A DNA stretch of 64,000 bases from an uncultured Gammaproteobacteria bacterium (GTDB taxonomy: Bacteria; Pseudomonadota; Gammaproteobacteria; Pseudomonadales; Halieaceae). The DNA is taken from positions 1,398 through 65,397 of the forward strand of contig CAVQRS010000003.1 in the NCBI GenBank assembly GCA_963715345.1. Reading direction: 5' to 3'. The position numbers were made by a program, and so were the translations under genes. Shown here in pieces: positions 10,875-64,000 of the stretch. The notes under the pieces are model-generated. The model searched no databases, was not told where the DNA came from, and saw nothing but the letters and a program-made list of their open reading frames with translations. The first letter of the stretch is position 1. The number at the start of each line of letters is the position of its first letter.

Positions 10875-10997
10875 AGTGGATTCATTGATCTGTGAACTGG
10901 TGAGCCTAAAGGTATTGCATTAACATCGGGTTACATTGTGGACAATAACCGGAAGAAAGTCCTCATTTCCCGCTTGATATAAATCATTGGATATTTG

Positions 10998-14636: not shown

Positions 14637-14649
14637 GGTTATAAAAGTC

Positions 14650-31427: not shown

Positions 31428-31475
31428 CCGGTCAACACACATGGCGGTAACGTGCCGGTGTTGACCGGGTTTTTT
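31428..31475 (+). terminator. Rho-independent terminator after the SYLF gene
   Basis: CCGGTCAACAC (31428-31438) pairs with GTGTTGACCGG (31458-31468), followed by G and TTTTTT (31470-31475). Confidence 0.7.
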
Positions 31476-31507
31476 GTCCGGCCCGGATATTACGGGACCC
31501 TCTTCAT

Positions 31508-33250
31508 ATGGCTCGCCTGATACTTGCTGTACTGCTGCTGGCGGTGGCAGTCGTGGTACTGGTGCTGGGCTATCTCCAATTTGCCGACCTCAATAAATAT
31601 AAGGCCCTGCTCGAGGCAGAGGTGGCCGAGGCTACCGGACGGGAATTTACTCTCGAGGAAATGGATCTGGAGCTCTTGCCCGCGTTGCGATTTGTCGCAC
31701 ACGGTGTAAGCCTGGCCAGCCCTGACTGGGCTAGCGAACCGCAGATGCTGCAACTGGGCACGCTGGTAGCCGTTGTAAAGCCCGCTTCGCTGCTCTTTGG
31801 TCCGCCTCAAATCGAGAGCATTACCCTCGAGGATGTTGTGCTCCTGCTGGAAACCGACCCCGGCGGCGACCTCAACTGGAGTCTGGACCAGGGTGTTGCG
31901 GGGGCGGGCAAGGGGTCGGGTGAGCGGCCGGATGAGTCCGGCTTATCGCGCCCGATGCCGGTAAAGCTGGGTAAGGTCACTGTCAGCCACCTGCTGGTCA
32001 AACGACGCCAGCCCGGCAGGGCCGAGCAGCGGCTTGCACTGGATGAGCTGGTGATCAAACCCGAAGCCGCCGGCGTCATGGAGCTGGCGGGATCCGGCAA
32101 GGTTGGCTCGCTGGCCTTCGACGTCGCGGCCGGGTTGGCAATGTCCCGGGAGGAAGTCGCCATAAACCCACTGCAGTTGCGAATTGGCTCAAGCGACATG
32201 GGCGGCAGTATCAGGCTTGATTCCGATGGCTTCCGGTTGACCCAGGTCGACCTGACATCAAAGAAACTGGACCTTACTGAACTGCTGGGCGAGGAGGGGG
32301 CGGGAGCCACTTCCAGTGCGGGTACCCGGACCTCGCACCCTGCATCGGCTGAGGGAAAGGGCGGGTACATATTTGTCGACGATCCGCTGCCACTGGAACA
32401 GCTGCGGCATTACGCGATGGAGTTCAGGCTGTCGGTAGAGGAGCTGGTCGGTAGCACCGTCACCCTGGAGAACCTGAACGCGGCCGGCAGCCTGCGGGAA
32501 GGGGAATTGAATGCCGATGTTGAATTCGCGACGCCAGTCGGGGCGCGCAGCGCATCCCGCATCAGGCTGAAGGCCCTCGGTGACGACGCGCAATTGCAGG
32601 CGTCAGTAACTGCGCGGGACCTGCGGCTGAATATCGCCTCGGGAAAAGGCGCGCAGCCCGGGCAGATTCCACCGATCAGCCTCTCCCTGAACGCAACCTC
32701 CTCAGGCGGATCGCCCCGGGCACTGGCCGCCGGCAGCAATGGCGACCTGCTTATCACCATTGGCCAGGGCCGAATCGATAACAAGCTCGTGGGGCGGGTG
32801 TCAGGCGATATCCTGGCGGAATTGTCCGCGGCACTTAACCCTTTTTCGAAGAAGGACTCCTACACCACCTTCGAATGCGGCGTCATGAAATTTCTGGTCG
32901 AGGACGGCATGGCCACCCTGGACCCCATGGTGCTGCAGGGAGAAAAGGTGACGATACTGGCCGATGGAACAGTCGACCTGAATACCGAGAAACTTGATAT
33001 CAAGTTCAATACCCAGCCGCGCGAGGGAATTGGCGTGAGTGCGGACATGTTCGTGACGCCTTTCGTCGCCCTGCGGGGCACGCTGGCAAACCCCACCGTC
33101 GGGGCCAACAAGACCGGGGCGCTGGTTGCGGCGGGCACCGGGGGGCTGTCCCTTTTCCTGCGGGGAGCCTGGGACCGTCTGGGCGGTAGCCGCAACCACT
33201 GCAAGGAGACCCTGCCTTCATTCACCCACCCGCCGTTGGCAGGTGAGTGA
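31508..33250 (+). CDS. AsmA-family protein
   Basis: N-terminal anchor MARLILAVLLLAVAVVVLVLGYL followed by DLNKYKALLEAEVAEATGREFTLEE. Repetitive beta-rich body. The C-terminal region is conserved in AsmA-like proteins. Confidence 0.75.
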   Translation: MARLILAVLLLAVAVVVLVLGYLQFADLNKYKALLEAEVAEATGREFTLEEMDLELLPALRFVAHGVSLASPDWASEPQMLQLGTLVAVVKPASLLFGPPQIESITLEDVVLLLETDPGGDLNWSLDQGVAGAGKGSGERPDESGLSRPMPVKLGKVTVSHLLVKRRQPGRAEQRLALDELVIKPEAAGVMELAGSGKVGSLAFDVAAGLAMSREEVAINPLQLRIGSSDMGGSIRLDSDGFRLTQVDLTSKKLDLTELLGEEGAGATSSAGTRTSHPASAEGKGGYIFVDDPLPLEQLRHYAMEFRLSVEELVGSTVTLENLNAAGSLREGELNADVEFATPVGARSASRIRLKALGDDAQLQASVTARDLRLNIASGKGAQPGQIPPISLSLNATSSGGSPRALAAGSNGDLLITIGQGRIDNKLVGRVSGDILAELSAALNPFSKKDSYTTFECGVMKFLVEDGMATLDPMVLQGEKVTILADGTVDLNTEKLDIKFNTQPREGIGVSADMFVTPFVALRGTLANPTVGANKTGALVAAGTGGLSLFLRGAWDRLGGSRNHCKETLPSFTHPPLAGE

Positions 33251-41001: not shown

Positions 41002-41040
41002 GTAGACCTATGTCCGTTGCCGGCACAAGGCCATTGCACA

Positions 41041-43233
41041 ATGACTGAACCCCTGTTCTGGCTGGCGCCTGTTGCCGCTGTGGTCGCACTGCTGTTTGCC
41101 ACCCTGTTTTTTCGTTGGATGCGGCGCCAGGACGAGGGTACGCCGCTGATGCGCAGGATCGGCGGGCACGTACGCGATGGTGCGATGGCATACCTGCGCC
41201 AGCAGTACCGGGTTATGGCCTTGGTTTTCGTCGTCCTGGCAGCCCTGTTCGCGGTGCTCGCCTATGGCTTTGGGGTGCAGAACCCCTGGCTGCCCTTCAC
41301 CTTCCTGTGCGGCGGTTTTTTTTCCGCACTGGCCGGATTCATCGGAATGCAGACCGCTACCCTGGCCTCCACCCGCACGGCGGCAGCGGCCCGCACCTCC
41401 CTCGGACAGAGCCTGCGGGTGGCATTTCGCAGCGGTGCCGTCATCGGGCTGGCGGTGGTCGGCCTGGGGCTGGCCAACTGCGCCGGCTGGTTCCTGCTGG
41501 TGAACTGGCTGACGCCGGCGTCAGCTGACAGTTACCGCCTGGTACTGGTGACCACCACGGTGCTGACGTTCAGCATGGGCGCATCACTGCAGGCTCTTTT
41601 CGCCCGGGTTGGCGGCGGTATCTATACCAAGGCGGCGGATGTGGGTGCCGACCTGGTGGGTAAGGTGGAGGCGGGCATTCCCGAGGATGACCCGCGCAAC
41701 CCCGCTGTTATCGCCGACAATGTCGGGGACAATGTGGGGGACGTGGCCGGTATGGGGGCAGACCTGTTCGAGTCCTACTGTGGCTCCCTGCTCGCCGCCT
41801 GCGCCCTGGGCGCCGCGGCTTACGTTGGCGACGATGTATTGCAGGCGAGGGCGATCACCGCGCCATTTATGATTGCCGGGCTCGGGATACTGGTCTCCAT
41901 TGTCGGTGTGTTCCTGGTCCGGACCGGGGAGGAGGCGGACCAGGGTGCATTGCTGGCCGCCTTGTCCCGTGGGATCAACACCAGCGCCGCGCTGGTGGCG
42001 CTGTTATCCCTGCCGGCGCTTTACTGGCTGCAGATGCCCAACCTTTGGGGCAGCTGGGGCGCGGTGGTGATTGGTCTGCTGACCGGCATTGTCATCGGGC
42101 GCGCCACGGAATACGCGACGTCTTCCTCGTATCCCTCAACGCGGGCCATCGCGGAGGCGGCCGAGAGCGGCCCTGCGACCACCCTGATCGCCGGTATCGG
42201 CTCCGGTATGCTCTCCACCGTGGTGCCGGTGATGGCGGTAGCCGCCGGCACCCTCTTCGCCTTTCTCTGTAGCGCGGCATTTGATCCCGCCCAGGTGATC
42301 CAGGGACTGTATGGCGTGGCCATCGCGGCGGTGGGCATGCTGTCCACTTTAGGTATTACCCTGGCCAGCGATGCCTACGGGCCGATTGCCGATAACGCCG
42401 GTGGCAATGCCGAAATGAGCGGGCTGGGTCCGGAAGTACGTGCCCGCACCGACGCGCTGGACTCGCTGGGCAATACCACTGCCGCCACCGGCAAGGGTTT
42501 TGCCATCGGCTCCGCGGCGCTTACCGCGCTGGCATTGATTGCTTCCTACCTGGAGGTGGTCCGGGTCACGCTGCTGCAATCCGGCCACGCCATGCTGAGC
42601 CTGCCCAACGAGGTCCAGGTGGCTACACGGGATGCCACCCTGGTGGATTTCATGGTGTATTTCAATGTCACCCTGTTGAACCCGGTGGTGCTGGTGGCGC
42701 TGTTCATTGGCTCCATGTCGGCCTTTGTTTTCAGTGGCCTGACCATGCAGGCAGTGGGGAGGGCCGCCGCGGCGATGGTCACCGAGGTGCGGCGCCAGTT
42801 CCGCGAAACGCCGGGCATTCTCGAGGGCACCGCCGAGCCGGACTACGCCCGTTGTATCGCAATATCCACCCTGGGCGCCCAGCGTGAGATGATCTGGCCC
42901 TCGGTTATCGCGGTGGCCACACCGGTGGCGGTAAGCCTGTTGCTTGGCGTGGCGGGGGTGATCGGCCTGCTGGTGGGAGGGCTGTGCACCGGTTTCGTGA
43001 TGGCGGTGTTCCTGTCAAATACCGGGGGCGCCTGGGATAACGCCAAGAAGTATATCGAGGCTGGGCAGCACGGTGGCAAGGGCTCACCGGCGCACCGCGC
43101 GGCGGTAATTGGCGATACGGTTGGCGACCCCTTTAAGGATACCTCCGGCCCCAGCCTGAATATCCTGATCAAGCTGATGAGTATTATCGCCATCTCCGTG
43201 GTTACCCTGGCCGTGTCCTACAGCCTGATATAG
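41041..43233 (+). CDS. hppA: Membrane-integral (V-type) ion-translocating pyrophosphatase
   Basis: [56 protein letters not shown] and [19 protein letters not shown] chose the start at 41041 ([10 protein letters not shown]). Confidence 0.93.
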
Positions 43234-52784: not shown

Positions 52785-53474
52785 ATGGTTTTCAAGCCAA
52801 GCAGCAAGGATAATTTCATCTGGCTGTTGACAGCCCTGGTGGCGCTTCAGTTTTTCAATTCGCTGTTCTCCCAGTTGGGGCTTCGCGGCGCCAATATACT
52901 GGTCAATATCAGCATGACAGTTATGGTGCTCATGTCCGTCTGGTCCCTGCAGGAAGTTCGCACCCGATGGTTCGGTCTCAAGTTTGTCGTCGCCCTGCTT
53001 GTCGTCATCCTGATGGTTGTCGACAGTTCCATCAAGAGCAACTGGCTGGCCCCGTTTCAGTTGATTACGATGTTCGCTTTCGTCAGCATTACCATCTACC
53101 TGGCATGGCAGCAGGTCATGTTTACTGGTGAGATTACCCGCAATACCATTTTTGGCTCCATCTGTATCTACATACTCATCGGTCTGCTGTTCGGCTTTGC
53201 CTACCTGATGGTGGAAAGTATCTTCCCCGGTTCCCTGGTCGGGCTCGACGGCGAAAACTGGCAGGAAAACCTGCAGGTCACTATCTACTATTCCATGGTG
53301 ACGCTGACCACGCTCGGCTATGGCGATATTACTCCGGCAGGCCAGGTCACCCGCTTTCTGGCCTATACGGAAGCCATGGTCGGTGTTTTCTACACTACCA
53401 TTCTGGTGGCCAGCCTGATCGGCCTGCGGCTGTCGGGATACCGGCCGAGTGATCCCGAAAAGCCGGAGCTGTAG
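52785..53474 (+). CDS. Potassium channel (2TM pore domain with extra N-terminal helices)
   Basis: Selectivity filter TLTTLGYGDITP. GGAGGG precedes the ATG. Confidence 0.85.
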   Translation: MVFKPSSKDNFIWLLTALVALQFFNSLFSQLGLRGANILVNISMTVMVLMSVWSLQEVRTRWFGLKFVVALLVVILMVVDSSIKSNWLAPFQLITMFAFVSITIYLAWQQVMFTGEITRNTIFGSICIYILIGLLFGFAYLMVESIFPGSLVGLDGENWQENLQVTIYYSMVTLTTLGYGDITPAGQVTRFLAYTEAMVGVFYTTILVASLIGLRLSGYRPSDPEKPEL

Positions 53475-53552
53475 AGGCCAGCCCGGCGGTCCCGCTCGCA
53501 CCGGGCACTCCGGCCACCGGCTTCGATCGACACCGGGTTTCCCCGCCTAAAA

Positions 53553-53566
53553 TTGAGCTTGATCAA
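53553..53566 (+). promoter_or_regulatory. Candidate FNR/Anr-type box upstream of rnfB
   Basis: TTGAG-CTTG-ATCAA matches TTGAT-N4-ATCAA at 9 of 10 positions. Its centre lies about 132 nt upstream of the rnfB ATG. No convincing -10 element was located. Confidence 0.3.
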
Positions 53567-53691
53567 GTGAAAGCCCCGTAGCGCTCGCCTGGGGCGCTTG
53601 TGGTTTGACTCTCTCCCGGCGAGCGCCTAAATTTTCCCGATAGGGTTTTAACCCGGCTTCCGGAAAAAGCAATTGCTGGATTGTTTCTGAC

Positions 53692-54557
53692 ATGGTGGTG
53701 CTCACCGCAGTGTTGGCTCTTGGCGGGCTGACGTTTCTGCTGGCCACCGCCTTGATCCTGGCCAATCGCAAACTCCATGTCGATGAAGACCAGCGGATCG
53801 ATGTCGTGGAGGAAATGCTGCCCCACGCCAATTGCGGCGCCTGTGGTTACCCGGGCTGCCGGCCATTCGCCGAAGCCCTGGTGGGCGGCGAAGTGGCGCC
53901 GGGCAAATGTTCGGTCAGTAGCCCCGCAGAGCGTGAGGCCATTGCCGATTACCTCGGTATAGCGGTAGGCGAACAGACCAGGATCGTGGCGCGGCTCGCC
54001 TGTGCGGGCGGCAGCAATGTCGCCCGCAAGCGGGCCCATTACAGCGGCGAGCCATCCTGTCTCGCCGCCGCCCAGGTGGCCGGCGGTGGCAAGGATTGCT
54101 TCTGGGGATGCCTTGGCTACGGGGACTGCGAGCGGGTCTGTGATTTCGACGCGATCAGGATGAACAACCACGATCTGCCGGTGGTCGACAGCGCCCTGTG
54201 TACCGGCTGCGGCGACTGCGTCGACATCTGTCCCAAGGACCTGTTTTCGCTGCACCCTGAGGATCACCGCCTCTGGGTGGCCTGCAAAAACCTGGAGCGG
54301 GGCGATGCGGTGCTGGCGGCCTGTGAAGTTGCCTGTACCGCCTGCGAGCGCTGCGCCGTCGATGCGCCCCGGCGCTGATCACCATGCGGGATAACCTGCC
54401 GGTGATCGATTACCGCCGGCCTCACGCCACCCGGGTGCCGATCGAGCGCTGCCCCACCGGCGCTATCGTCTGGATCGACGAGAAGGGCGGCGTGGTAAAG
54501 GGCGCAGCCAGCCGCAAAGTCCTGCGCCACGATGCCCTGCCGGAAGCGCCCAGCTGA
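53692..54557 (+). pseudogene. rnfB: Rnf complex subunit B (polyferredoxin type), with the frame broken near 54361-54375
   Basis: N-terminal anchor plus NCGACGYPGCRPFAEAL. CTGCGDCVDICPKD. The listed ORF stops at 54378 (…CERCAVDAPRR), but the -1 frame continues as (C)APALITMRDNLPVIDYRRPHATRVPIERCPTGAIVWIDEKGG to a stop at 54555-54557. That adds a conserved CPTGAI cluster ligand. Confidence 0.8.
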
Positions 54558-54609
54558 GGTTCCTGAGATTGGTCCATCAGCGCACTACGAGACAACGAGG
54601 AAACACAGC

Positions 54610-57600
54610 ATGAGCAAGCCAGACACCGCATACAAGTACCCCGGCCAGCGCGCCGCGATGGACGGCAATACCGCGGTCATTATGTGCGAGCGGGAGTCCA
54701 GCGACGCGGCGGGAGCCTACCCCATCACGCCCTCTACCCAGATGGGCGAGTACTGGGCGGAAGCCGCCGCCCAGGGACATATCAACGTGTCGGGGCGGCC
54801 GCTGATCTTCATCGAGCCCGAGGGCGAGCATGCGGCTGCCGCCGTGACCGCCGGGCTGGCCATGACCGGATTGCGCGCGGCCAATTTTTCCTCCGGCCAG
54901 GGCATCGCCTATATGCACGAGTCGCTCTACGCGGCAGTGGGCAAGCGCCTGACCTACGTACTCAATATCGGTGCCCGGGCCATGACCAAGGCGACCCTGA
55001 ACGTGCACGCCGGGCACGACGACTACCACTGCGTGGATGACACCGGTTTCTTCCAGCTGTTTGCCGCCAACGCCCAGCAGGCGGCGGACCTGAATATTAT
55101 CGCCCACCGTATCGCCGAGCTGGCGCTGACCCCGGGTATCGTCGCCCAGGACGGCTTCCTCACCACCCACCTGATCGAGTCCCTGCTGGTGCCGGAGCGG
55201 GAGTTGATCGCCGAGTACCTGGGGCGACCCGATGACATCATCGCCACGCCCACTCCCGCCCAGCGGATGATTTTCGGTGATATGCGCCGGCGCATACCCG
55301 AGCTGTGGGACGTGGACAACCCGATGATGTCAGGGCTGGTACAGAACCAGGATTCCTACATGCAGAGCGTTGCGGCCCAGCGGCCCTTCTTCTTCGACCA
55401 TATCGACGAGCTGGCGGAACAGGCCTTTTACGAATTCCACGAGTTGACGGGCCGCCAGTACGGCCCGGTGGCCACCTACCTGGCGGATGATGCGGATTAC
55501 CTTATCGTCGGCCAGGGCAGTGTGATTCCCAGCGCCGAGGTGGTGGCCGATTACCTGCGCGAGACCCGCCGCATCAAGGTGGGGGTGGTGAACCTGACCA
55601 TGTTCCGCCCTTTCCCCGGCGCGCAGCTCAGCGAGGTGCTCAAGGGCAGAAAGGGCGTGGTGGTGCTGGAGCGCCTCGACCAGCCGCTGGCAGCGGACCT
55701 GCCGCTGATGCGCGAAATCCGCGCCACCCTGGGCAAGGCCATGGAGAACGGCCGCGACAAACACGAGACGCCTTACCCGCAGCTGGCCACCTACAGCAGC
55801 CTGACCGATGCCCCGTCGCTGTACTCCGGCTCCTTTGGCCTGGGCAGTCGCGACCTGCAGCCCGAGGGCCTGATCGGCGCCATCGAGAACATGCTGCCGG
55901 ACGGGGCGCGCAAGAAACAGTTTTACCTGTCCATCGATTTCCTGCGGGACGAAGCCATGACCCCCAAGCAGGAGATCCACCAGGACAACATCGAGAGCAG
56001 CTATCCCGGGGTGCGGGCGCTGGCGATACGCGGCAGCGAAAACCCCAACCTGATGCCCGCCGGCAGTATTACCGTGCGCTTCCACTCCGTCGGCGGCTGG
56101 GGCGCGATCACCACCGGCAAGAACCTGGCGATGACCCTGTTCGACCTGCTGGGTTACCACATCAAGGCCAACCCCAAGTACGGTTCCGAGAAGAAGGGCC
56201 AGCCCACCACCTACTATCTGTCCGCTGCCCCCGAACCGATCCGTATCAACTGCGAATACTTTTACGTCGACGTGGTGCTGTCACCCGACCCCAATGTGTT
56301 CCACCACACCAACGCGCTGGCCGGGCTGAAAGAGGGCGGTGTGTTCGTCATCCAGAGCGACCGCGGCTCGGCGGAGCAGGTGTGGGCCGACATTCCCGAA
56401 CACTACCAGCAGATCATCGTCGACAAGCAGATTCGCCTGTTTTACCTGGACGCTTTCAATATCGCCCGGGAAGAGGCCACTGATTCGGAACTGCAGCTGC
56501 GGATGCAGGGCATCGCCTTCCAGGGCGCCTTCTTCGCCGCCTCGCCGCTGGCCGAACAGACCGGCCTGGGCGAGGAGAAACTGCTGCAGGCGATTCGCAG
56601 CCAGCTGGAGCACAAGTTTGGCACCAAGGGCGCCAGGGTGGTGGAGGACAATGTCCGGGTGGTCAAGCGCGGCTTCGACGAGGTGCGGGAAATCACCGAC
56701 AAGGAAGTGGGGATACAGACGGCCCGGCTGATCGATGCGCGCGCCGAGCCCAAGCTGCCGGTGATGGTGAAGCGCCTGCCACAGAGCGGGGCGCCCAGCG
56801 CGGATATCCACCGCTTCTGGGAGCAGACGGGCAATTTCTACGCTCGCGGCATGGGCAACGACAATCTCACCGATCCCTTCATCGGCCTGGGCGTCATGCC
56901 CGCGTCGTCGGCGCTGTTTCGCGATATGACCGGCATTCGCTTCGAGCATCCCCAGTGGATAGCGGAGAACTGCACTGCCTGCGGCAATTGCTACACCGTC
57001 TGTCCGGATACGGCCATCCCGGGCCTGGTCAACGAGGTGGGCCAGGTGCTGGACACCGTGGTCGGCCGGGTCAGGAAGAAAGGCTACAGCCGTGCAGCAC
57101 CTGCCGCGCGCCGTGCGCAAGCTGGAGCGGAGCCTGCGGGGCCTGCTCGGCGAGGCGCCGGAGACCGACCCGGTGGGCGCGCTGCTGCAGGAGGCGATCA
57201 CCGCCACGGTCAACAACCCCGAGCTGGCGGAAGCCGAGCGCGCTGAACTCAAGCGGGAATTCGAGTGGTTCAACGAGGAACTGGATGGTTTCCAGTTCGC
57301 CCTCAGCCGGCCCTATTACACCCTGCCGGAGAAGAAGGCGGCGGGCAGTGGCGGCCTGCTCAGCATTACGGTCAACCCCTACACCTGCAAGGGCTGCATG
57401 GAGTGCGTGGCGGTGTGTGACGACGCGGCGCTCGATCCCGGTGCGCCAGACCGGGGATTCCGTGCAGCAGCTGCGCGACCAGTGGAATTTCTGGCTGGAC
57501 CTGCCCACCACGCCGCAGAAATACATCCGGGTGGACGACCTCGAGCAGGGCATCGGCGCGCTGGAGACCATCCTGCTGGACAAGGAGACCTACTCCGGCC

Positions 57601-59543
57601 TCACCAGCGGCGACGGCGCCTGCCTGGGCTGTTCGGAAAAGACCGTGATGCACCTGTTCGTCGCCACCGTCGAGGCGCTGATGCAGCCGCGGGTGAAGGC
57701 GCAGGTCGCCAAACTGGAAGACCTTATCAGTCGCCTGGCGCAGCATATCCAGCTGCAGCTGGTGCAGGAGGTCAACGTCGGCGACACCGAGGCGCTGGCG
57801 GATATTCTCAGCCGCAATGCCGACCACGACCTGACCCTGTCGGATATCGCCCGGCAGATGGAGGACATGAAAGGCAGCCAGCCCATCGATCCGGCCTGGC
57901 TGAAACGGGTGTCCGGTCTGCTGGGCCAGCTGAAGGAACTGAAGTGGCGTTACACCGAGGGCACCAGCGGCCGCGGCCGGTCCACCATGGGTATGCTCAA
58001 CGCCACCGGCTGTACCTCGGTGTGGGGCAGTACCTACCCCTTCAACCCCTATCCGTTTCCCTGGTCCAACCACCTGTTCCAGGACAGTGCCTCGCTGGCG
58101 ATGGGTGTCTTCGAAGGGCATATGGCGAAAATGGCGGAGGGCTTCAAGGCCATCCGCGCGGCGGAGCTGGAATTGTCAGGCCAGTACCGGGAGGCAGAGC
58201 ACGAGGAGTTCTTCACCTATTTCACCTGGGAACAGTTTACCGACCAGGAATTCCTGCTGTGCCCGCCGGTGGTCGCGGTGGGTGGCGACGGTGCCATGTA
58301 CGACATCGGTTTCCAGAACCTGTCCCGGGCGATGATGTCGGGCAAGCCGATCAAGATCCTGGTGGTGGATACCCAGGTCTACTCGAACACCGGCGGCCAG
58401 GCCTGCACCTCCGGGTTTATCGGCCAGATATCGGACATGGCCCAGTTCGGCAAGGTCAACAAGGGCAAGCACGAAGTGCGCAAGGAGATCGGCCTGATCG
58501 CCATGGCCCATCGCACCACCTATGTGCTGCAGAGCGGCATCGCCCACGCCAATCACATGATAGAGGGCTTCATCCAGGGACTGATGGCCCAGCGACCGGC
58601 GCTGTTCAACCTGTATACCTCCTGCCAGCCCGAGCACGGTATCGGCGACGACATGGGGCACCACCAGGCCAAGCTGGCGGTGGAGTCCCGGGCCTACCCG
58701 CTGTTTCGCTACAACCCGGACCTGGGCAAAACGCCCCAGGAGTGCTTTGACCTGGACGGTAACCCCGCCATGTTTGAGGACTGGCCCAGCTACAGTCTGA
58801 CCTACCTCGAGGGCAGTCGCGAAAAGACCATGGAGTTGCCGCTGACCTTTGCCGACTTCGCCATGACCGAGGCGCGCTTTCGCAAGCATTTCCGCATGGC
58901 GCCGCCGGATACCTGGCACGACGACATGGTGCCCCTGGTGGACTTCATGCAGCTGGGGGTGGATGAGCGCGAGGGCAAGTTCCCGTTTATCTGGACCCTG
59001 GACAAGCGCCAGCACCTGAGCCGCCTGCTGGTGGATGAGACCATGGTCCTGTCCTGCGAGGAGCGCAGGGATTTCTGGGTGATGCTCAAGGCCATTGCCG
59101 GGGTCAAGCCGAAGGCTCCCGACACGGCCGGGGAGATCGAGGAAAAAACCCGTCGGGACGTGGTGCGCAGGATTGCCAGCGGCCTCATGCGTATGGCCGA
59201 GGGTGATGAGGCGCTGCCCGCCGACCCGCTGGAGCCCGCCGGAGACAAGGTGATTGCCAGCTCCGGGACCGCTGCGCCGGCGGCGGGGTCCGACTACATG
59301 GCGCCCTGGCTGGATACCGAGGAATGTACGGCCTGTGATGAATGCACCAATCTCAATCCGGCCATGTTCGCCTATAACGAGTCGAAGAAAGCGTATATCA
59401 AGGATCCGCTGGCCGGGCCGTACAGGGACCTGGTGAAAGCGGCGGAAAAGTGTACCGCCCAGGTCATTCACCCGGGTTTGCCGGCGGATCGCAGTGAGGC
59501 GGATATCGACAAGTGGATAGCGCGGGGTGCCAAGTACAACTGA
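54610..59543 (+). pseudogene. Pyruvate/2-oxoacid:ferredoxin oxidoreductase (NifJ/YdbK-like, about 1640 aa) with a C-terminal ferredoxin-like domain. Two +1 frame breaks.
   Basis: The gene is read across three listed ORFs:
- 54532..57246 covers domains I-IV (AYPITPSTQMGEYW, QDGFLTTH) and the first cluster CTACGNCYTVCPDTAIPG.
- 57092..58750 is sensible only for VQHLPRAVRKLE...NPYTCKGCMECVAVCDDAALD.
- 56955..59543 is sensible from PVRQTGDSVQQLRDQWNFW onward, including GDGACLGCSEKT and GGDGAMYDIGFQNLSRAMMSGKPIKILVVDTQVYSNTGGQACTSG, and ends with CTACDECTNLNP...EKCTAQVIHPG.
The breaks fit an extra A in AAA (57079-57081) and an extra C in CCC (57437-57439). Start ATG at 54610 follows GAGGAA. Confidence 0.85.
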
Positions 59544-60880
59544 TGTTCAGCGCGCTACGCCAGCATCGCAGTTTCGCCCACGGCATTCACCCGCCGGAGG
59601 CCAAGGACGACACCCGGGACCTGCCGATAAAGCAGTTCCCCTTTGCCCCGGTGATGATCGTCCCGCTGTCGCAGCACATCGGCAAGCCGGCCCTGCCCGT
59701 GGTGCGGGAGGGCCAGGAGGTGGAGCGGGGCCAGCTGATCGCGGAACCGGATGGCTTCGTGTCGGTGGCGATGCACGCGCCGGCCTCGGGGGTCATCCAG
59801 CGCATCGCCCTGGCACCGGGAATCAACGGCAGGATGTCGCCGGCGATTTTTCTCAAGCCGTTCCCGGGCTCCAGCCAGCAGGTCAGCGAGGGTGAGCCCT
59901 GTGACCTCGCCACCGCCTCGCCGGAGGATATCCTGCTGGCTATCCAGCGGGCGGGCATCGTCGGCCTCGGCGGCGCAGCCTTTCCGACCCATGTGAAACT
60001 GAAAGTCCCCGACGATAAACACATCGACACGCTGATCATCAACGGAGTGGAGTGCGAGCCCTACCTGACCACGGACCACCGGGTGATGCTGGAGCAGCAG
60101 GCGGATATTTTCACCGGCGTGCGCTACCTGTTGAAGGTGACTGGCGCGGAGTGCGCGATCATCGGGGTGGAGGCCAACAAGCTCGACGTGGCGCAGTCGC
60201 TGCGCGCGGCACTGCCCACGGATATTCCCGTGACGGTGGAGGTGGTGGCGGTGAAGTATCCCCAGGGCGCGGAAAAAATGCTGATCAGCGCCCTGCTTGA
60301 CCGCGAGGTACCCTCCGGTGGCCTGCCCTCGGACATCGGCGTGGTCAGCGTGAATGTGGCCACCACCGCGGAGATCGGTCGCCTGCTGCCCCACGGTCGC
60401 GGTATCCAGGAGCGCGTCATTACCATCGGTGGGCCCGCCATCGCCAGGAAAGGCAACTACCGCATCCCCATCGGCACGCCCCTGCGCTTCGCCCTGGACT
60501 ACGCCGGTATGGCGCAGAATGTCAGCCGGGTGTTCCTGGGGGGGCCGATGATGGGCCAGTCCCTGCCCAGCCTGGATATTCCGATTACCAAGGGCACTTC
60601 CGGTTTCATCGCTTTCAGCGATGCCCAGACGGCGGCGCCCGTCGAGTACCCCTGTATCCACTGCGCCTATTGCGTGGACGCCTGTCCCCTGTTCCTCAAC
60701 CCCTCCCAGCTGGGCCTGCTGGCCCGGGCGGGCCAGGTCGAGCGCATGGCCGATGAATTCAACCTGCTGGACTGCTTTGAGTGCGGCTCCTGCTCCTACG
60801 TCTGCCCGGCGCATATACCGCTGGTGCAGCGCTTTCGCGCGGCCAAGGGCGTGCTCAGGAAGCGGCGGGCCGCCTCGTGA
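59543..60880 (+). CDS. rnfC: Rnf complex subunit C
   Basis: GIHPPE...PLSQHIGKPA, GLGGAAFPTHVKL, CIHCAYCVDACP and CFECGSCSYVCPAHIPL. The ATG overlaps the PFOR stop (TGATG). Confidence 0.9.
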   Translation: MFSALRQHRSFAHGIHPPEAKDDTRDLPIKQFPFAPVMIVPLSQHIGKPALPVVREGQEVERGQLIAEPDGFVSVAMHAPASGVIQRIALAPGINGRMSPAIFLKPFPGSSQQVSEGEPCDLATASPEDILLAIQRAGIVGLGGAAFPTHVKLKVPDDKHIDTLIINGVECEPYLTTDHRVMLEQQADIFTGVRYLLKVTGAECAIIGVEANKLDVAQSLRAALPTDIPVTVEVVAVKYPQGAEKMLISALLDREVPSGGLPSDIGVVSVNVATTAEIGRLLPHGRGIQERVITIGGPAIARKGNYRIPIGTPLRFALDYAGMAQNVSRVFLGGPMMGQSLPSLDIPITKGTSGFIAFSDAQTAAPVEYPCIHCAYCVDACPLFLNPSQLGLLARAGQVERMADEFNLLDCFECGSCSYVCPAHIPLVQRFRAAKGVLRKRRAAS

Positions 60881-61890
60881 GTGCGCGCGGACACACCCTG
60901 CAGATCCACAGCTCGCCGCATATCGCCAGCGGCGCCAGTGTCGATGTGATCATGCGCAACGTGGTGCTGGCGCTGTTGCCGGTGGTGGCATTCGCGGTAT
61001 ACAGCTTCGGGCTGGCGGCGGCCCTGACGCTGCTGGTGGCGGTGTTTTCCTGCGTTGCCACCGAGCACCTGCTGTGCCGGCTGGCCGCCACCCCGACCAC
61101 GGTGCGGGACTGGTCTGTCACCATTACCGGCCTGCTCTACGGCCTTACCCTGCCGCCGGCGCTGCCCCTGTGGATGGTGGCCTGCGGCGGGGTGATCGGT
61201 GTGGCCATGGCCAAGTTCCTGTTCGGCGGTCTCGGCTACAACGCCTTCAACCCGGCCCTGGTCGGCCGCGCCTTCCTGCAGGCGGCCTTTCCCGTGGCGA
61301 TGACCAGCTGGACGCCGGCCTTTGCCGCCGATCGTTTCAGCCAGCTGCCCGCCAGTACCTTTACCATGCCCTTCGCAGCCCCGGTATATGACGGCGTCAG
61401 CGGTGCGACACCCCTGTCCCTGTTCAAGTTCGATGGCCAGCTCACCGCCACCGGCGACCTGCTGCTGGGCCTCACCAATGGCTCCGCCGGTGAGACCTGT
61501 GCCGTGTTGATCCTCGCCGGTGGCCTCTACCTCGCCGCCAGGAAGATGCTGAACTGGCGGATCCCGGCGGCGATACTGGCAACCGTCGCCGGCCTGGGCT
61601 GGGGCTTTCACCTGCTGTCTCCCGCGGACTACCCGCCGGCGGGCTTCATGTTGTTCTCCGGTGGCCTGATGCTGGGAGCCGTGTTCATGGCCACGGATAT
61701 GGTGGCCTCGCCGATTACCAACGCCGGTTGCGTGCTCTACGGTGTACTGATCGGTGTGCTGATCACCGTGATCCGCCTCTGGGGCGGCATGCCCGAGGGG
61801 GTGATGTACGCGATCCTGCTGGCCAATGCCGCCTCGCCGCATATCGACGGGCTGATCCAGCCCCGCGTCTTCGGCACGGGCAGGGGCTGA
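60877..61890 (+). CDS. rnfD: Rnf complex subunit D
   Basis: SSPHIASGASVDVIMRNVVLALLP N terminus and FMN-attachment block VSGATPL. The GTG start overlaps the rnfC stop (GTGA). The listed ORF starts at 60781. Confidence 0.9.
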   Translation: MSARGHTLQIHSSPHIASGASVDVIMRNVVLALLPVVAFAVYSFGLAAALTLLVAVFSCVATEHLLCRLAATPTTVRDWSVTITGLLYGLTLPPALPLWMVACGGVIGVAMAKFLFGGLGYNAFNPALVGRAFLQAAFPVAMTSWTPAFAADRFSQLPASTFTMPFAAPVYDGVSGATPLSLFKFDGQLTATGDLLLGLTNGSAGETCAVLILAGGLYLAARKMLNWRIPAAILATVAGLGWGFHLLSPADYPPAGFMLFSGGLMLGAVFMATDMVASPITNAGCVLYGVLIGVLITVIRLWGGMPEGVMYAILLANAASPHIDGLIQPRVFGTGRG

Positions 61891-61893
61891 GCC

Positions 61894-62610
61894 ATGCACA
61901 GCGCTTCCGGCCAACACAATGCTGCCCACCCTCCCATCTGGCCCCTGTACCGGGCGCTGGTGGGCGTGGGACTGGTCTGTGGTTTGCTGATTGTGTCGGT
62001 GTTCGTGCTGACCGGCCCCGTGATCGCGCGCAACGAGGCTGCGGCCCTGCAGCGGGCGGTGTTCCAGGTCTTGCCCGGCGCGGTGGCCAAGGCCTCCTTT
62101 GAACTGGGGCCCGATGGCAACTTCCATCCGGCGGGCCAGGGCAGCGCTCCGCAGCAGACAGTGCATGCGGGCTACGACGCCGAGGGCCACCTCGTCGGCG
62201 TCGCCATCGAGGCCCAGGGCATGGGCTACCAGGACACCATCCGCCTGCTCTACGGTTACGCGCCGCAAAGCCAGACTGTTGTTGGTATGGAGGTGCTCTC
62301 GAGCAAGGAAACCCCTGGCCTGGGCGACAAGATCGAAAAGGATCCGGCCTTTCGCGCCAATTTTCGCGCCCTGGATGTCGGCATTGCAGCGGACGGCCAG
62401 TCCCTGCAGCGGCCGGTCGAGGCGGTGAAGAGCGGTAGCAAGACCCTGCCGTCCCAGATCGATGGCATCACCGGTGCGACCATTTCATCCAAGGCCATCG
62501 CGGCTATTTTGCGCCAGAGCAGTGCCCAGTGGGTGCCCCTGGTGTATCGCCTGCAGAGTGAGCTGGAAGGCGAACCAGAAGGGGAGGGGCAGACCGATGG
62601 CGGGAGCTGA
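61894..62610 (+). CDS. rnfG: Rnf complex subunit G
   Basis: SKETPGLGDKI and the FMN-binding DGITGATISS. Confidence 0.88.
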   Translation: MHSASGQHNAAHPPIWPLYRALVGVGLVCGLLIVSVFVLTGPVIARNEAAALQRAVFQVLPGAVAKASFELGPDGNFHPAGQGSAPQQTVHAGYDAEGHLVGVAIEAQGMGYQDTIRLLYGYAPQSQTVVGMEVLSSKETPGLGDKIEKDPAFRANFRALDVGIAADGQSLQRPVEAVKSGSKTLPSQIDGITGATISSKAIAAILRQSSAQWVPLVYRLQSELEGEPEGEGQTDGGS

Positions 62611-63253
62611 CAGGAACGCCGCCAGTGCGATGTCCACTGACGACTTTATCAAGGGCCTGTGGCGGGAAAACCCCGTGTTCGTGCAGGTACTGGGCATGTG
62701 CCCGGTGCTTGCGGTGACCAACTCGGCCATCAATGCGCTGGCAATGGGGCTGGCCACCACCTTCGTGCTGGTGCTGTCGAACACCCTGGTGGCGACGCTG
62801 CGCCACTTCATCCCCAGGCAGGTGCGCATCGCGACATTTATCCTGATCATCGCCACCTTCGTCACGGTGGTGGACTACCTGATCCAGGCCATCAGCCTGG
62901 ATCTGCACCGGGCCCTGGGCGCCTTCATTTCCCTTATCGTGGTGAACTGCCTGATCCTGGGCAGGGCGGAGGCCTTTGCCTCGAAGAACACGGTCACCCG
63001 CTCGGTGCTGGACGGGCTGGGCATGGGCGTGGGCTTTACCTTCGCCCTGTTGTGCCTCGGCGGCGCCCGGGAGATTTTCGGCAGCGGCTCGCTGTTTGGT
63101 GTGGCGCTGTTTCCCGCCGCCTACCAGCCGTGGATTGTGATGATTTTACCCAGTGGGGGCTTCTTCACCCTCGCCCTGTGGCTGTTGCTGTTCAACCATC
63201 TCAAGCTGCGCAGGCAGGCGCGTGACGATCTGGCACAGGAGGTGACGCAGTGA
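62597..63253 (+). CDS. rnfE: Rnf complex subunit E
   Basis: LWRENPVFVQVLGMCPVLAVTNSAINALAMG. ATG at 62597 follows GGAGGGG. The listed ORF starts at 62462, inside rnfG. Confidence 0.9.
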   Translation: MAGADRNAASAMSTDDFIKGLWRENPVFVQVLGMCPVLAVTNSAINALAMGLATTFVLVLSNTLVATLRHFIPRQVRIATFILIIATFVTVVDYLIQAISLDLHRALGAFISLIVVNCLILGRAEAFASKNTVTRSVLDGLGMGVGFTFALLCLGGAREIFGSGSLFGVALFPAAYQPWIVMILPSGGFFTLALWLLLFNHLKLRRQARDDLAQEVTQ

Positions 63254-63831
63254 ACAACGATTCCCTCTGGACCATCTTCCTCAATGCCAGCCTGGTGAAC
63301 AATTTTGTGCTGGCCTACTTCCTGGGGATATGCCCGTTCCTGGGTGTGTCGGGCAAGCTCGGCACCGCGACCCGGATGGGCGGCGCGGTCTGTTTCGTGA
63401 TGCTGGTCAGCTCGGTCTGCGCCTATGGCATTCACCGGCTGCTGGTCGCCATCGATGCACCCTACCTGCAACTGATTTCCTATATCGTGGTGATCGCCTC
63501 CACCGTGCAGCTGGTGGAGATGTTTATCAAGAAAATGAGCCCGGCCCTGTTCCGGGCGCTGGGTATTTTCCTGCCGCTCATTACCACCAACTGCGCGATC
63601 CTGGGCCTGGCCCTGTTCCAGACCAACAAGGGTTACGACCTGTTGCAGTCGATCGTCTATGCGCTGGGTGCCGGCAGCGGCTTTACCCTGGCGCTGGTGC
63701 TGATGGCCGGGATCCGCGAAAAACTCGAACTCGCCTCGGTGCCGGACATGGTGCAGGGGACGGCCCTCACCCTGATGATCGCCGGCATCCTGTCACTGGC
63801 ATTCATGGGCTTTGCGGGGGTGGGGGCGTGA
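63250..63831 (+). CDS. rnfA: Rnf complex subunit A
   Basis: LVNNFVLAYFLGICPFLGVS and FLPLITTNCAILG. The GTG start overlaps the rnfE stop (GTGA). Confidence 0.93.
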   Translation: MNNDSLWTIFLNASLVNNFVLAYFLGICPFLGVSGKLGTATRMGGAVCFVMLVSSVCAYGIHRLLVAIDAPYLQLISYIVVIASTVQLVEMFIKKMSPALFRALGIFLPLITTNCAILGLALFQTNKGYDLLQSIVYALGAGSGFTLALVLMAGIREKLELASVPDMVQGTALTLMIAGILSLAFMGFAGVGA

Positions 63832-63835
63832 CGTC

Positions 63836-64000
63836 ATGCTGAACACCTTCCTCACCGCTGCGGCGGGCATGATTTTTATCAGCTGCGGCTGGCTTGCAGT
63901 GCAGCGCCTTTGGCTGCGTCACTTTCCCGATCGGGGTGGCGCCAACGACGATGCGCTGGCCGGACACGGCGGCTGCCAGGGCTGTAATTGCGGGCCGGCG
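63836..64000 (+). CDS. Partial ORF: small single-transmembrane Cys-rich protein downstream of rnfA (runs off the window)
   Basis: ATG lies 5 nt after the rnfA stop. The translation is MLNTFLTAAAGMIFISCGWLAVQRLWLRHFPDRGGANDDALAGHGGCQGCNCGPA. The frame is open to base 64000. It is absent from the supplied track because it is truncated. Confidence 0.3.
   Translation, partial: MLNTFLTAAAGMIFISCGWLAVQRLWLRHFPDRGGANDDALAGHGGCQGCNCGPA

What the first reader, a model, noticed from the sequence alone, without database searches (positions are those of the whole stretch)
53692..63831. Rnf operon in the B-C-D-G-E-A order with a giant PFOR-like gene inserted between rnfB and rnfC
Gammaproteobacterial rnf/rsx operons are normally rnfABCDGE. 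This one runs rnfB, a PFOR-like gene, then rnfC, D, G, E and A. That is the BCDGEA arrangement reported for Bacteroidetes/Chlorobi-type clusters, with an extra gene embedded.

The embedding is tight. The PFOR stop overlaps the rnfC start (TGATG), rnfC/rnfD and rnfE/rnfA overlap by GTGA, and rnfG/rnfE overlap by 14 nt. The frame-corrected RnfB is long (about 288 aa) and has additional ferredoxin-type clusters.

Together the genes would form a self-contained route from a 2-oxoacid to the membrane: PFOR reduces ferredoxin-type clusters, and Rnf passes the electrons to NAD+ while pumping Na+/H+. Run in reverse, the ion gradient would drive 2-oxoacid synthesis. I am not aware of a described operon with this organisation.
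Basis: partly seen in the sequence, partly recalled or inferred. Interest (0 to 1): 0.7.

Follow-up and report, generated by a model that had tools for sequence, protein, structure and literature searches.

The report
Giant PFOR embedded in Rnf operon
This is a real gene cluster, shared by hundreds of bacterial species, that places a giant pyruvate-type oxidoreductase with its own ferredoxin tail inside the genes for the Rnf membrane ion pump; I found no study of it, and the three frame breaks in this copy look like sequencing errors.

Summary
On the + strand lie rnfB, a 1,644-codon PFOR-like gene, then rnfC, D, G, E and A, with the stated start/stop overlaps and three frame breaks.

It is not a one-off. 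In 69 of 69 related loci with enough sequence, the giant PFOR sits directly upstream of rnfCDGEA. These loci come from Gammaproteobacteria, Bacteroidota, Myxococcota, Acidobacteriota and other phyla. rnfB lies either in front of the PFOR gene, as here, or at the far end.

- The cluster continues past rnfA with a small Cys-rich membrane protein, whose start is at the window edge. In relatives a plant-type ferredoxin-NADP+ reductase follows.
- The PFOR ends in a tethered single-cluster ferredoxin domain.
- This RnfB clade has lost all four ligands of one [4Fe-4S] cluster, probably the ferredoxin-entry cluster.
- A conserved FNR/Anr-like box and promoter precede rnfB.

Best reading: a dedicated 2-oxoacid:NAD(P)+ redox module coupled to ion translocation, probably induced at low oxygen. 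The direction of electron flow is unproven.

The frame breaks are probably sequence errors. Relatives are intact, selection is not relaxed, and a fourth break lies in an unrelated conserved gene.

I found no published description.

The parts
53553..53566 (+). FNR/Anr-type box TTGAGCTTGATCAA (9 of 10 matches to TTGAT-N4-ATCAA), 139 nt upstream of the rnfB start
   Evidence: The box sits at the same offset (-132 to -144) in the window and in L002-L006, although the surrounding DNA has diverged. Sites scoring 9/10 or better occur in 6 of 72 upstream regions; random 300-nt segments give a mean of 1.5.
53605..53633 (+). Sigma-70-like promoter: TTGACT, 17-nt spacer, TAAATT
   Evidence: It is the only promoter-like site in 53300-64000. 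Both hexamers are invariant or nearly so across six diverged upstream regions.
53692..54557 (+). rnfB, long clostridial type, 287 aa after correction; one base missing near 54369
   Evidence: Pfam finds the FeS domain plus Fer4 domains, and NCBIfam finds rnfB models. It aligns over its full length with C. tetanomorphum RnfB 7ZC6_B at 3e-53. The frame break is seen against L002-L004. Across 63 PFOR-linked RnfB sequences 20 Cys are invariant, and the four ligands of one FdIII cluster are absent in all 63.
54610..59543 (+). Giant PFOR-like 2-oxoacid:ferredoxin oxidoreductase (about 1,643 aa after correction); extra G at 57089 and extra C at 57433
   Evidence: Pfam finds POR_N, PFOR_II, POR, Fer4 and TPP_enzyme_C. 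TIGR02176 scores 420 bits against a cutoff of 911. The 120 best homologues are 1,448-1,673 aa long (all but one fragment at least 1,624 aa) and 72-98% identical. Their alignment to the window passes through three frames. The closest solved structures are the PFORs 6CIN and 1B0P.
59289..59540 (+). C-terminal single-[4Fe-4S] ferredoxin domain of the PFOR, joined by a low-complexity linker
   Evidence: Pfam Fer4_13 matches residues 1569-1621. The four Cys are invariant in alignment A1. The best PDB match is Desulfovibrio africanus ferredoxin I (1DAX/1FXR) at 1.7e-7, covering the whole ferredoxin. In the AF2 model the linker has pLDDT below 50 and the terminal domain 64-82.
59543..60880 (+). rnfC; its start overlaps the PFOR stop (TGATG)
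   Evidence: TIGR01945 scores 483 bits; Pfam finds RnfC_N, Complex1_51K and Fer4. PDB 7ZC6_C matches at 1.7e-110. Junction shown.
60877..61890 (+). rnfD (GTG start inside GTGA)
   Evidence: PF03116 at 5e-104 and TIGR01946. The SGAT flavinylation-type motif is visible in the translation.
61894..62610 (+). rnfG
   Evidence: Pfam FMN_bind. TIGR01947 rnfG scores 92 bits, below its cutoff of 102. The motif DGITGAT is visible in the translation.
62597..63253 (+). rnfE (14-nt overlap with rnfG)
   Evidence: PF02508, TIGR01948 and the RsxE subfamily model all score above their cutoffs.
63250..63831 (+). rnfA (GTGA overlap with rnfE)
   Evidence: TIGR01943 scores 244.7 bits against a cutoff of 229.
63836..64000 (+). 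Start of a small membrane protein: one TM helix and a Cys-rich motif (GCQGCNCG...). It is cut by the window end.
   Evidence: Translation. The homologous 62-78 aa gene follows rnfA in relatives and is itself followed by a plant-type FNR gene in 57 of 62 loci. It matches no Pfam or NCBIfam family.

Best explanation
The region is one operon, and part of a mobile module that is conserved across phyla. The full module is rnfB, a PFOR-ferredoxin fusion, rnfCDGEA, a small Cys-rich membrane protein and a plant-type FNR. I read it as a dedicated 2-oxoacid (most likely pyruvate):NAD(P)+ oxidoreductase system coupled to ion translocation.

Proposed electron path:
1. The PFOR oxidises the 2-oxoacid with CoA at its TPP site.
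2. Electrons pass along its three [4Fe-4S] clusters to the ferredoxin domain tethered to its own C-terminus.
3. That domain docks on RnfB. In this clade RnfB has lost what is probably its outermost ferredoxin-accepting cluster.
4. Electrons run through Rnf to NAD+ while Na+ or H+ is exported.
5. The FNR draws on the same ferredoxin to make NADPH.

In the Halieaceae-like clade, to which this window belongs, a conserved FNR/Anr-type box suggests induction at low oxygen. The module would then replace pyruvate dehydrogenase and conserve extra energy.

Shown here: gene content, synteny, domain make-up, Cys patterns and the promoter footprint. Inferred: docking, substrate, direction of flow and ion coupling.

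The three frame breaks are most likely sequence errors, so the operon is probably intact in the organism.
For: Synteny and spread:
- rnfC follows the PFOR gene in 69 of 69 loci. All six rnf genes plus the PFOR gene are present in 61 loci. There are two layouts, found in 44 and 23 loci.
- The PFOR stop and rnfC start overlap here and in L001 and L002.
- PFOR and RnfA identity to the window does not follow taxonomy. Myxococcota and Bacteroidota score 68-75% for PFOR and about 80% for RnfA, whereas the gammaproteobacterium Ectothiorhodospira scores 61% and 68%. The unit therefore moves as a whole.

Fused ferredoxin:
- Pfam Fer4_13 matches; the four Cys are invariant; the best PDB hit is D. africanus ferredoxin I; the linker is predicted to be disordered.

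RnfB:
- It is the long clostridial type.
- All four ligands of one FdIII cluster are replaced in 63 of 63 PFOR-linked RnfB sequences.
- Among 50%-identity representatives, 4 of 4 that are at least 45% identical to the window lack these ligands, while 85 of 113 more distant ones keep them.
- Vitt et al. 2022 (PMC9588780) place ferredoxin entry at the outermost FdIII cluster. [quoted passage not shown]

FNR:
- It is present in 57 of 62 loci, is of the plastid type, and ends in a terminal Tyr.

Promoter:
- The footprint includes an FNR/Anr-like box.

Frame breaks:
- Homologues are intact.
- pN/pS is 0.07.
- The window branch has 18 synonymous and 6 nonsynonymous changes, against 55 and 16 on the sister branch.
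- A fourth one-base insertion lies in an unrelated gene that is intact in 120 relatives.
Against: - There is no biochemical or expression evidence of any kind.
- Assigning the lost RnfB cluster to the entry cluster (RnfB-6) rests on ferredoxin-fold ligand rules and sequence order, not on coordinates.
- Twenty more distant RnfB representatives also lack that cluster, and their gene context is unknown.
- The FNR/Anr-like box was found only in the six closest gammaproteobacterial loci. It lies about 80 nt upstream of the inferred transcription start, which is not the classic -41.5 position.
- Many carriers are aerobes, in which Rnf usually runs in reverse.
- The PFOR scores below the curated cutoff for the pyruvate enzyme, so the substrate is uncertain.
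- Three of the four frame breaks fall within 3.1 kb. This is mildly non-random; my rough estimate is p about 0.03.
Confidence: 0.55

Rival explanations
1. Same module, opposite direction. Respiratory or light-driven ion-motive force drives Rnf backwards (NADH to ferredoxin), and the PFOR works as a pyruvate synthase (acetyl-CoA + CO2 to pyruvate). This would give aerobic or photoheterotrophic carriers a route for C2 assimilation or CO2 fixation. The FNR would add NADPH-derived electrons.
For: - Most carriers are aerobes or facultative aerobes: Halieaceae, Flavobacteriaceae, Saprospiraceae, Methylotuvimicrobium.
- In aerobes such as Azotobacter, Rnf is taken to run in reverse (review PMC12174285).
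- The Ignavibacterium album genome paper proposes exactly this Rnf-to-PFOR logic for acetate assimilation (PMC3362086).
- The architecture is reversible in principle.
Against: - RnfB, C and D resemble the ferredoxin-oxidising clostridial complexes more than Azotobacter Rnf1.
- An FNR/Anr-type box suggests expression at low oxygen, when ion-motive force is scarce and NADH is plentiful.
- Neither point is decisive.
Confidence: 0.25
2. Co-regulation without physical wiring. The PFOR (with its fused ferredoxin), Rnf and the FNR share an operon only because they balance one ferredoxin pool. There is no docking of the tethered domain on RnfB and no supercomplex.
For: - Functionally linked enzymes are often co-transcribed without binding each other.
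- Some RnfB lineages of unknown context also lack the cluster.
- Four loci lack the FNR, so the module tolerates changes in composition.
Against: - The PFOR gene is next to rnfC in 69 of 69 loci across phyla.
- The stop and start codons overlap.
- A ferredoxin gain on the PFOR and a cluster loss on RnfB occur together in the same clade.
Confidence: 0.15
3. The frame breaks are real. In this strain rnfB and the PFOR gene are recently inactivated pseudogenes, and the operon is dead or decaying.
For: - Three indels lie within 3.1 kb, in two adjacent genes.
- None is in a long homopolymer.
- Genes from 46.5 to 53.5 kb and rnfC through rnfA are intact.
Against: - There are no in-frame stops or excess amino-acid changes. 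The nonsynonymous-to-synonymous ratio on the window branch (6:18) equals that on the sister branch (16:55), and pN/pS is 0.07.
- An equivalent one-base insertion breaks an unrelated, highly conserved lyase gene at about 765-769. This points to a background of assembly errors.
Confidence: 0.12
4. The giant enzyme acts on a 2-oxoacid other than pyruvate, such as 2-oxoglutarate, 2-oxobutyrate or a branched-chain or aromatic oxoacid. The module would then serve a different pathway.
For: - TIGR02176 scores 420 bits against a cutoff of 911.
- There are roughly 470 extra residues relative to solved PFORs.
- NCBI names the family only '2-oxoacid:acceptor oxidoreductase family protein'.
Against: - The best-scoring models and structures are all pyruvate enzymes.
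- The YPITPS and ARA motifs, which as I recall carry the pyruvate-binding Thr and Arg of D. africanus PFOR, are conserved.
Confidence: 0.2

Closest known systems
Clostridial/acetogen-type Rnf complex (C. tetanomorphum 7ZC6, A. woodii 9ERI)
   Same: All six subunits are present. RnfB has a long multi-cluster form that aligns end to end at 3e-53. RnfC matches at 1.7e-110 and RnfD at 8.5e-62.
   Different: The gene order differs (the clostridial order rnfCDGEAB is from my memory). RnfB lacks one complete [4Fe-4S] site. A PFOR gene, a small Cys-rich gene and an FNR gene lie inside the operon. The hosts are mostly aerobes or facultative aerobes.
Homodimeric PFOR (Moorella thermoacetica 6CIN, Desulfovibrio africanus 1B0P) with free ferredoxin I (1FXR)
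   Same: The domain order is the same (POR_N, PFOR_II, POR, 2x[4Fe-4S], TPP-binding), and the TPP and cluster motifs are conserved. The C-terminal domain resembles D. africanus ferredoxin I. From memory, that ferredoxin is a physiological partner of D. africanus PFOR.
   Different: The protein has 1,644 aa rather than about 1,170-1,230. There are about 195 extra residues between the first ferredoxin motif and the TPP domain, and about 210 extra at the C-terminus. The ferredoxin is fused rather than free. The protein scores below the TIGR02176 cutoff.
Ignavibacterium album eight-gene cluster IALB_0246-0253 (rnfCDGEAB plus two genes of unclear function)
   Same: The description fits layout 2 of this module (rnfCDGEA, two extra genes, rnfB), and the authors link Rnf functionally to PFOR (PMC3362086).
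   Different: The I. album PFOR (IALB_2949) is encoded elsewhere. I could not fetch the sequences, so whether the two extra genes match the small Cys-rich and FNR genes is a guess.
Gammaproteobacterial rnfABCDGE/rsx and Azotobacter vinelandii Rnf1 (8AHX)
   Same: The core subunits are homologous, and the host is a gammaproteobacterium.
   Different: The gene order differs. Azotobacter RnfB is short (174 aa) and matches only the N-terminal part at 5e-15. RnfC and RnfD also score lower. No oxidoreductase is embedded in those operons.
Pyruvate:NADP+ oxidoreductase (PNO) of Euglena and Cryptosporidium (from memory)
   Same: A PFOR is hard-wired to a flavoprotein that reduces NADP+, so no soluble ferredoxin is needed.
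   Different: In PNO a CPR-like reductase is fused to the PFOR. Here the reductase is a separate plant-type FNR, and the main outlet is a membrane ion pump.
Na+-NQR (nqrABCDEF plus nqrM)
   Same: rnfCDGEA, then a small TM Cys-rich protein, then an FNR-family protein, is collinear with nqrABCDE-F. NqrM is likewise a small Cys-rich membrane protein.
   Different: The FNR here is of the plastid/cyanobacterial type (1SM4 at 5.6e-37), and matches the nqrF model only at about 1e-12. The small protein matches no family. rnfB is retained.

Membership tests
Rnf complex (RnfABCDGE-type ferredoxin:NAD+ oxidoreductase) | Genes for all six subunits A, B, C, D, E and G in one cluster | tested here: met
   Pfam and NCBIfam hits for each gene. 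The subfamily models for rnfA, C, D and E score above their cutoffs; rnfB passes TIGR01944.
Rnf complex (RnfABCDGE-type ferredoxin:NAD+ oxidoreductase) | RnfC with an NADH/FMN-binding domain and a 2x[4Fe-4S] domain; RnfD and RnfG with S/T-G-A-T flavinylation motifs | tested here: met
   RnfC has Complex1_51K and Fer4 domains. 'VSGATP' in RnfD and 'DGITGAT' in RnfG are visible in the translations.
Rnf complex (RnfABCDGE-type ferredoxin:NAD+ oxidoreductase) | Ferredoxin:NAD+ oxidoreductase activity coupled to Na+/H+ translocation | not testable with these tools
   Requires membrane biochemistry.
Long (clostridial-type) RnfB with six [4Fe-4S] sites | Complete Cys ligand sets for FdI, FdII (two clusters), the bridging cluster and FdIII (two clusters) | tested here: not met
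   Twenty Cys are invariant, which is enough for five sites. The four ligands of one FdIII cluster are A, P, T and P in the window, and are absent in 63 of 63 family members.
Gamma-type rsx/rnfABCDGE operon | Gene order A-B-C-D-G-E and a short (about 190 aa) RnfB | tested here: not met
   The order here is B-PFOR-C-D-G-E-A and RnfB is 287 aa. The RsxB model scores 79 bits against a cutoff of 203.
Bacteroidetes/Chlorobi-type rnfBCDGEA operon (order as recalled from Biegel et al. 2011; that paper was not readable here) | A contiguous B-C-D-G-E-A order | tested here: not met
   The order is interrupted by a 4.9-kb PFOR gene. Bacteroidota that carry this module have rnfB last, after the FNR gene.
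Pyruvate:ferredoxin oxidoreductase, single-polypeptide NifJ/PFOR type (TIGR02176) | Domains I, II, III, V (2x[4Fe-4S]) and VI (TPP) in one chain | tested here: met
   Pfam finds POR_N, PFOR_II, POR, Fer4 and TPP_enzyme_C. The Cys motifs and the GDG...SNTGG motif are invariant.
Pyruvate:ferredoxin oxidoreductase, single-polypeptide NifJ/PFOR type (TIGR02176) | Score at or above the curated equivalog cutoff, and a typical length of about 1,170-1,230 aa | tested here: not met
   The score is 420 bits against a cutoff of 911. The length is 1,644 aa, and homologues are at least 1,624 aa except for one 1,448-aa fragment.
Pyruvate:ferredoxin oxidoreductase, single-polypeptide NifJ/PFOR type (TIGR02176) | Pyruvate- and CoA-dependent ferredoxin reduction | not testable with these tools
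   Requires an enzyme assay.
Plant-type ferredoxin-NADP+ reductase (the gene downstream of the window, in relatives) | Full-length similarity to plastid/cyanobacterial FNR, RLYS(V/I)A and GTGIAPF motifs, and a C-terminal Tyr | tested here: met
   PDB 1SM4 matches at 5.6e-37 over residues 11-285. The motifs and the ...VELVY end are visible in L002, L070 and L032. The gene itself lies beyond the window end.

The most novel reading that the evidence does not exclude
The module builds a membrane-bound PFOR-Rnf supercomplex. The ferredoxin domain tethered to the PFOR takes the place of the missing outermost RnfB cluster. Pyruvate oxidation, or pyruvate synthesis in reverse, would then be coupled directly to ion translocation with no soluble ferredoxin. 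A plant-type FNR, possibly held at the membrane by the small Cys-rich protein, would act as a second nicotinamide port. This would be a previously unrecognised class of energy-converting 2-oxoacid:NAD(P)+ oxidoreductase, spread by horizontal transfer through aerobic and facultative bacteria of many phyla.
Probability: 0.35. Interest if true: 0.8.

Novelty: new variant of a known kind. Interest (0 to 1): 0.6.

Why it matters
PFOR, ferredoxin and Rnf are textbook partners in strict anaerobes, where they meet through a soluble ferredoxin pool. Here they are fused genetically, and they occur in hundreds of mostly aerobic or facultative species: marine Halieaceae and Woeseiaceae, Flavobacteriia, Saprospiraceae, Acidobacteriota, Myxococcota and a methanotroph.

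If the wiring is physical, it would matter in three ways.
- It gives a natural, tethered model for how ferredoxin docks on RnfB, which the 4.27 Å C. tetanomorphum map (PMC9588780) did not show directly: ferredoxin was only modelled at RnfB.
- It suggests how such bacteria gain energy from pyruvate when oxygen runs out, or fix CO2 into pyruvate using ion-motive force.
- It would change how 'PFOR' and 'Rnf' hits are read in metagenomes from oxic habitats.

Several cultured carriers make the idea directly testable: Methylotuvimicrobium buryatense 5G, Cecembia rubra, Algoriphagus kandeliae, Phaeodactylibacter xiamenensis and Ectothiorhodospira magna.

Tried and rejected
- Literature. Ten full-text searches and readings of two Rnf/Nqr evolution and review papers found no description of a PFOR gene inside an rnf operon. 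Subscription journals are not covered, and the Biegel 2011 review was not held.
- Methylotuvimicrobium expression data. One RNA-seq paper reports 'por' up-regulated together with nif and rnf genes. It does not say which por gene, so I did not use it.
- Small Cys-rich protein. It matches no Pfam or NCBIfam family even at E = 10. The resemblance to NqrM or FeoB-associated proteins is architectural only.
- NqrF-like origin of the FNR. Rejected as close homology: the FNR is of the plastid type.
- AF2 model of the C-terminal 702 aa. Mean pLDDT was only 61. I used it only for the contrast between linker and folded domain and ran no fold search on it.
- FNR/Anr box outside the closest gamma clade. 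Not found at 9/10 matches or better.
- Flanking genes. They are not conserved between L002 and L083, so they give no pathway hint.
- The look-up of P0041 (Exilibacterium) found no record.
- An apparent phase change at 31.45-31.87 kb is noise, not a frameshift.
- The window holds no second rnf or nqr cluster.

Full report
**What is in the sequence.** ORF listing and translation, followed by Pfam and NCBIfam scans, confirm the layout on the + strand:
- rnfB 53692-54557
- a PFOR-like gene 54610-59543
- rnfC 59543-60880
- rnfD 60877-61890
- rnfG 61894-62610
- rnfE 62597-63253
- rnfA 63250-63831

A tblastn search of the window finds no second rnf or nqr cluster.

The nearest relatives are labelled Halioglobus sp., Haliea sp. 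or Pseudomonadales. The window therefore comes from a Halieaceae-like gammaproteobacterium.

**The frame breaks.** The 120 best homologues of the PFOR are 72-98% identical to it. All but one 1,448-aa fragment are uninterrupted proteins of 1,624-1,673 aa. Their alignment to the window passes through three reading frames. Comparison with a 96%-identical metagenome contig (L001) shows that the window has one extra G at 57089 and one extra C at 57433. In rnfB the window is one base short near 54369, compared with three relatives that read D-A-P-x-G-L there.

Three results argue against real gene decay.
- pN/pS between the window and L001 is 0.07, and it stays low downstream of the breaks.
- When changes are polarised with two outgroups, the window branch carries 18 synonymous and 6 nonsynonymous changes, and the sister branch 55 and 16. 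Constraint is therefore not relaxed.
- A codon-phase scan of the whole window found a fourth break in an unrelated minus-strand 'lyase' gene. That gene is a single protein of about 583 aa in 120 relatives, and the window has an extra base at about 765-769.

Four single-base indels in strongly constrained genes within 64 kb look like assembly errors. That three of them fall within 3.1 kb is mildly odd, so I keep about 12% for genuine recent inactivation.

**The arrangement is widespread.** Two patterns were used per gene, so some loci may be counted twice; the safe statement is 'hundreds of species'.

I examined the 80 best loci plus three loci obtained by protein look-up. Every one of the 69 loci with more than 1.5 kb downstream of the PFOR gene has rnfC next to it. 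Sixty-one loci carry the PFOR gene and all six rnf genes.

Two layouts occur.
- rnfB-PFOR-rnfCDGEA, in 44 loci: Halieaceae, Woeseiaceae, Chromatiaceae, Ectothiorhodospira, Myxococcota, Acidobacteriota, Calditrichota, Planctomycetota and Hydrogenedentota.
- PFOR-rnfCDGEA-...-rnfB, in 23 loci: Bacteroidota and Methylotuvimicrobium.

Identity to the window does not follow taxonomy. Myxococcota and Bacteroidota score 68-75% for the PFOR, while the gammaproteobacterium Ectothiorhodospira scores 61%. The unit has evidently moved horizontally as a whole. Flanking genes differ between loci.

**The module is larger than the finding.** After rnfA the window holds the start of a small protein with one transmembrane helix and a Cys-rich motif. 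It runs off the window edge at 63836-64000. In relatives this 62-78 aa gene is followed by a 285-aa gene in 57 of 62 loci.

The 285-aa protein is a plant-type ferredoxin-NADP+ reductase. Its best family models are PetH and BoxA. It aligns over its full length with chloroplast FNR (1SM4, 5.6e-37). It carries the RLYSVA and GTGIAPF motifs and the terminal Tyr. The small protein matches no family. In the Bacteroidota layout, rnfB follows the FNR gene.

[quoted passage not shown] This is probably the same core without an adjacent PFOR gene.

**The PFOR.** It has the full single-chain PFOR domain set, but it scores 420 bits against the TIGR02176 cutoff of 911. The closest solved structures are the Moorella and D. 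africanus PFORs (2e-86 and 9e-74). Relative to those it has about 195 extra residues between the first ferredoxin motif and the TPP domain, and about 210 extra at the C-terminus.

The last 84 residues or so are a single-cluster ferredoxin. Pfam Fer4_13 matches, the four Cys are invariant in the family, and the best PDB match is D. africanus ferredoxin I over its whole length (1.7e-7). A low-complexity stretch precedes this domain. AF2 predicts that stretch to be disordered (pLDDT below 50) and the terminal domain to be folded (64-82), although the model as a whole is poor (mean 61). The enzyme therefore carries its own electron acceptor on a tether.

**RnfB.** The corrected protein aligns end to end with C. 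tetanomorphum RnfB (3e-53) and A. woodii RnfB (1.5e-50). Only its N-terminal part aligns with the short Azotobacter RnfB. RnfC and RnfD show the same preference.

Across 63 PFOR-linked RnfB sequences 20 Cys are invariant, which is enough for five [4Fe-4S] sites. The four Cys that would bind the second cluster of the last ferredoxin fold are replaced in all 63. These are the fourth Cys of the first motif and the first three Cys of the second motif.

I then looked at 50%-identity representatives of the wider RnfB family, keeping only those with the neighbouring cluster's ligands intact. All 4 that are at least 45% identical to the window lack these four Cys. Of 113 more distant ones, 85 keep all four.

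Vitt et al. describe six clusters in C. tetanomorphum RnfB. [quoted passage not shown] The retained FdIII cluster shares a sequence segment with the bridging cluster, so the lost one is most likely RnfB-6. This last step is inference from ligand order, not from coordinates.

**Regulation.** The only sigma-70-like site in the region is TTGACT-17-TAAATT at 53605-53633. The upstream regions of the window and five relatives are otherwise diverged, but they share four conserved blocks:
- both promoter hexamers;
- a TTGAG-N4-ATCAA palindrome at 53553-53566, which matches the FNR/Anr consensus at 9 of 10 positions;
- a 5'-UTR block containing GCAATTGC.

This footprint supports a single promoter in front of rnfB and oxygen-responsive control in this clade. 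No strong terminator lies inside the cluster.

**Mechanism and rivals.** The best-supported reading is a dedicated 2-oxoacid (probably pyruvate):NAD(P)+ system. Electrons would run from TPP through the three PFOR clusters to the tethered ferredoxin, then to RnfB, through the membrane part of Rnf (RnfA/E, RnfG, RnfD) to RnfC and on to NAD+, with ion export. The FNR would act as an NADPH branch. I favour the oxidative, low-oxygen direction (about 0.55) because of the FNR/Anr-like box and the clostridial affinity of the Rnf subunits.

The reverse direction is a serious rival (0.25), because most carriers are aerobes. In that case ion-motive force would drive pyruvate synthesis. Co-regulation without docking (0.15), a non-pyruvate substrate (0.2, an independent question) and a dead operon (0.12) remain open.

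**Novelty.** All the parts belong to known families. The following features are new as far as I could establish: the embedded giant PFOR-ferredoxin fusion, the matching RnfB cluster loss, the operonic plant-type FNR and the small Cys-rich protein. Ten searches of open-access literature found no description of them. I rate this a new variant of a known kind, of solid interest to bioenergetics, and testable in cultured carriers.

Noticed in passing
window 2-1553 (- strand), break at about 765-769: A Vgb/streptogramin-lyase-like gene is split by a one-base insertion. It is a single protein of about 583 aa in 120 relatives. This is a fourth frameshift in the window, outside the finding.
   Followed up: yes
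window 53669-53676 and the surrounding 5'-UTR block (about 53655-53691): The leader sequence in front of rnfB is strongly conserved in the window and L002-L005 and contains the palindrome GCAATTGC. No regulator or RNA element has been assigned to it.
   Followed up: partly
window 63836-64000, and L002 19228-20308: rnfCDGEA, then a small TM Cys-rich protein, then an FNR-family protein, is collinear with nqrABCDE-F. However, the FNR is of the plastid type and the small protein has no family, so this may be convergence rather than an Rnf-to-Nqr intermediate.
   Followed up: partly
window 41017-43233 (+): A membrane H+-translocating pyrophosphatase (Pfam H_PPase, 5e-256) lies 10 kb upstream. It is another ion-motive device in the neighbourhood.
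   Followed up: no
window 10995-17196 (+): A glycogen-type cluster: GlgB branching enzyme (10995-13190), an unscanned ORF (13191-14636), and a DUF3417/glucan phosphorylase (14590-17196).
   Followed up: no
L002 7643-8881, compared with window 53475-53691: A close relative carries a Na+/H+ exchanger gene between the ion-channel gene and rnfB. The window has only a 217-nt intergenic region there.
   Followed up: no
L063, L073, L076, L080: Four PFOR-Rnf loci (Hydrogenedentota, two Gammaproteobacteria MAGs, Ectothiorhodospira magna) lack the FNR gene after rnfA. In E. magna an unrelated ORF follows the small Cys-rich gene.
   Followed up: partly
window 31455-31942: A codon-phase anomaly lies at the 5' end of a 580-aa ORF (31508-33250) that looks AsmA-like by eye; I ran no domain scan. 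A 151-aa antisense ORF with high GC3 overlaps it. I judged this to be noise, not a frameshift.
   Followed up: partly
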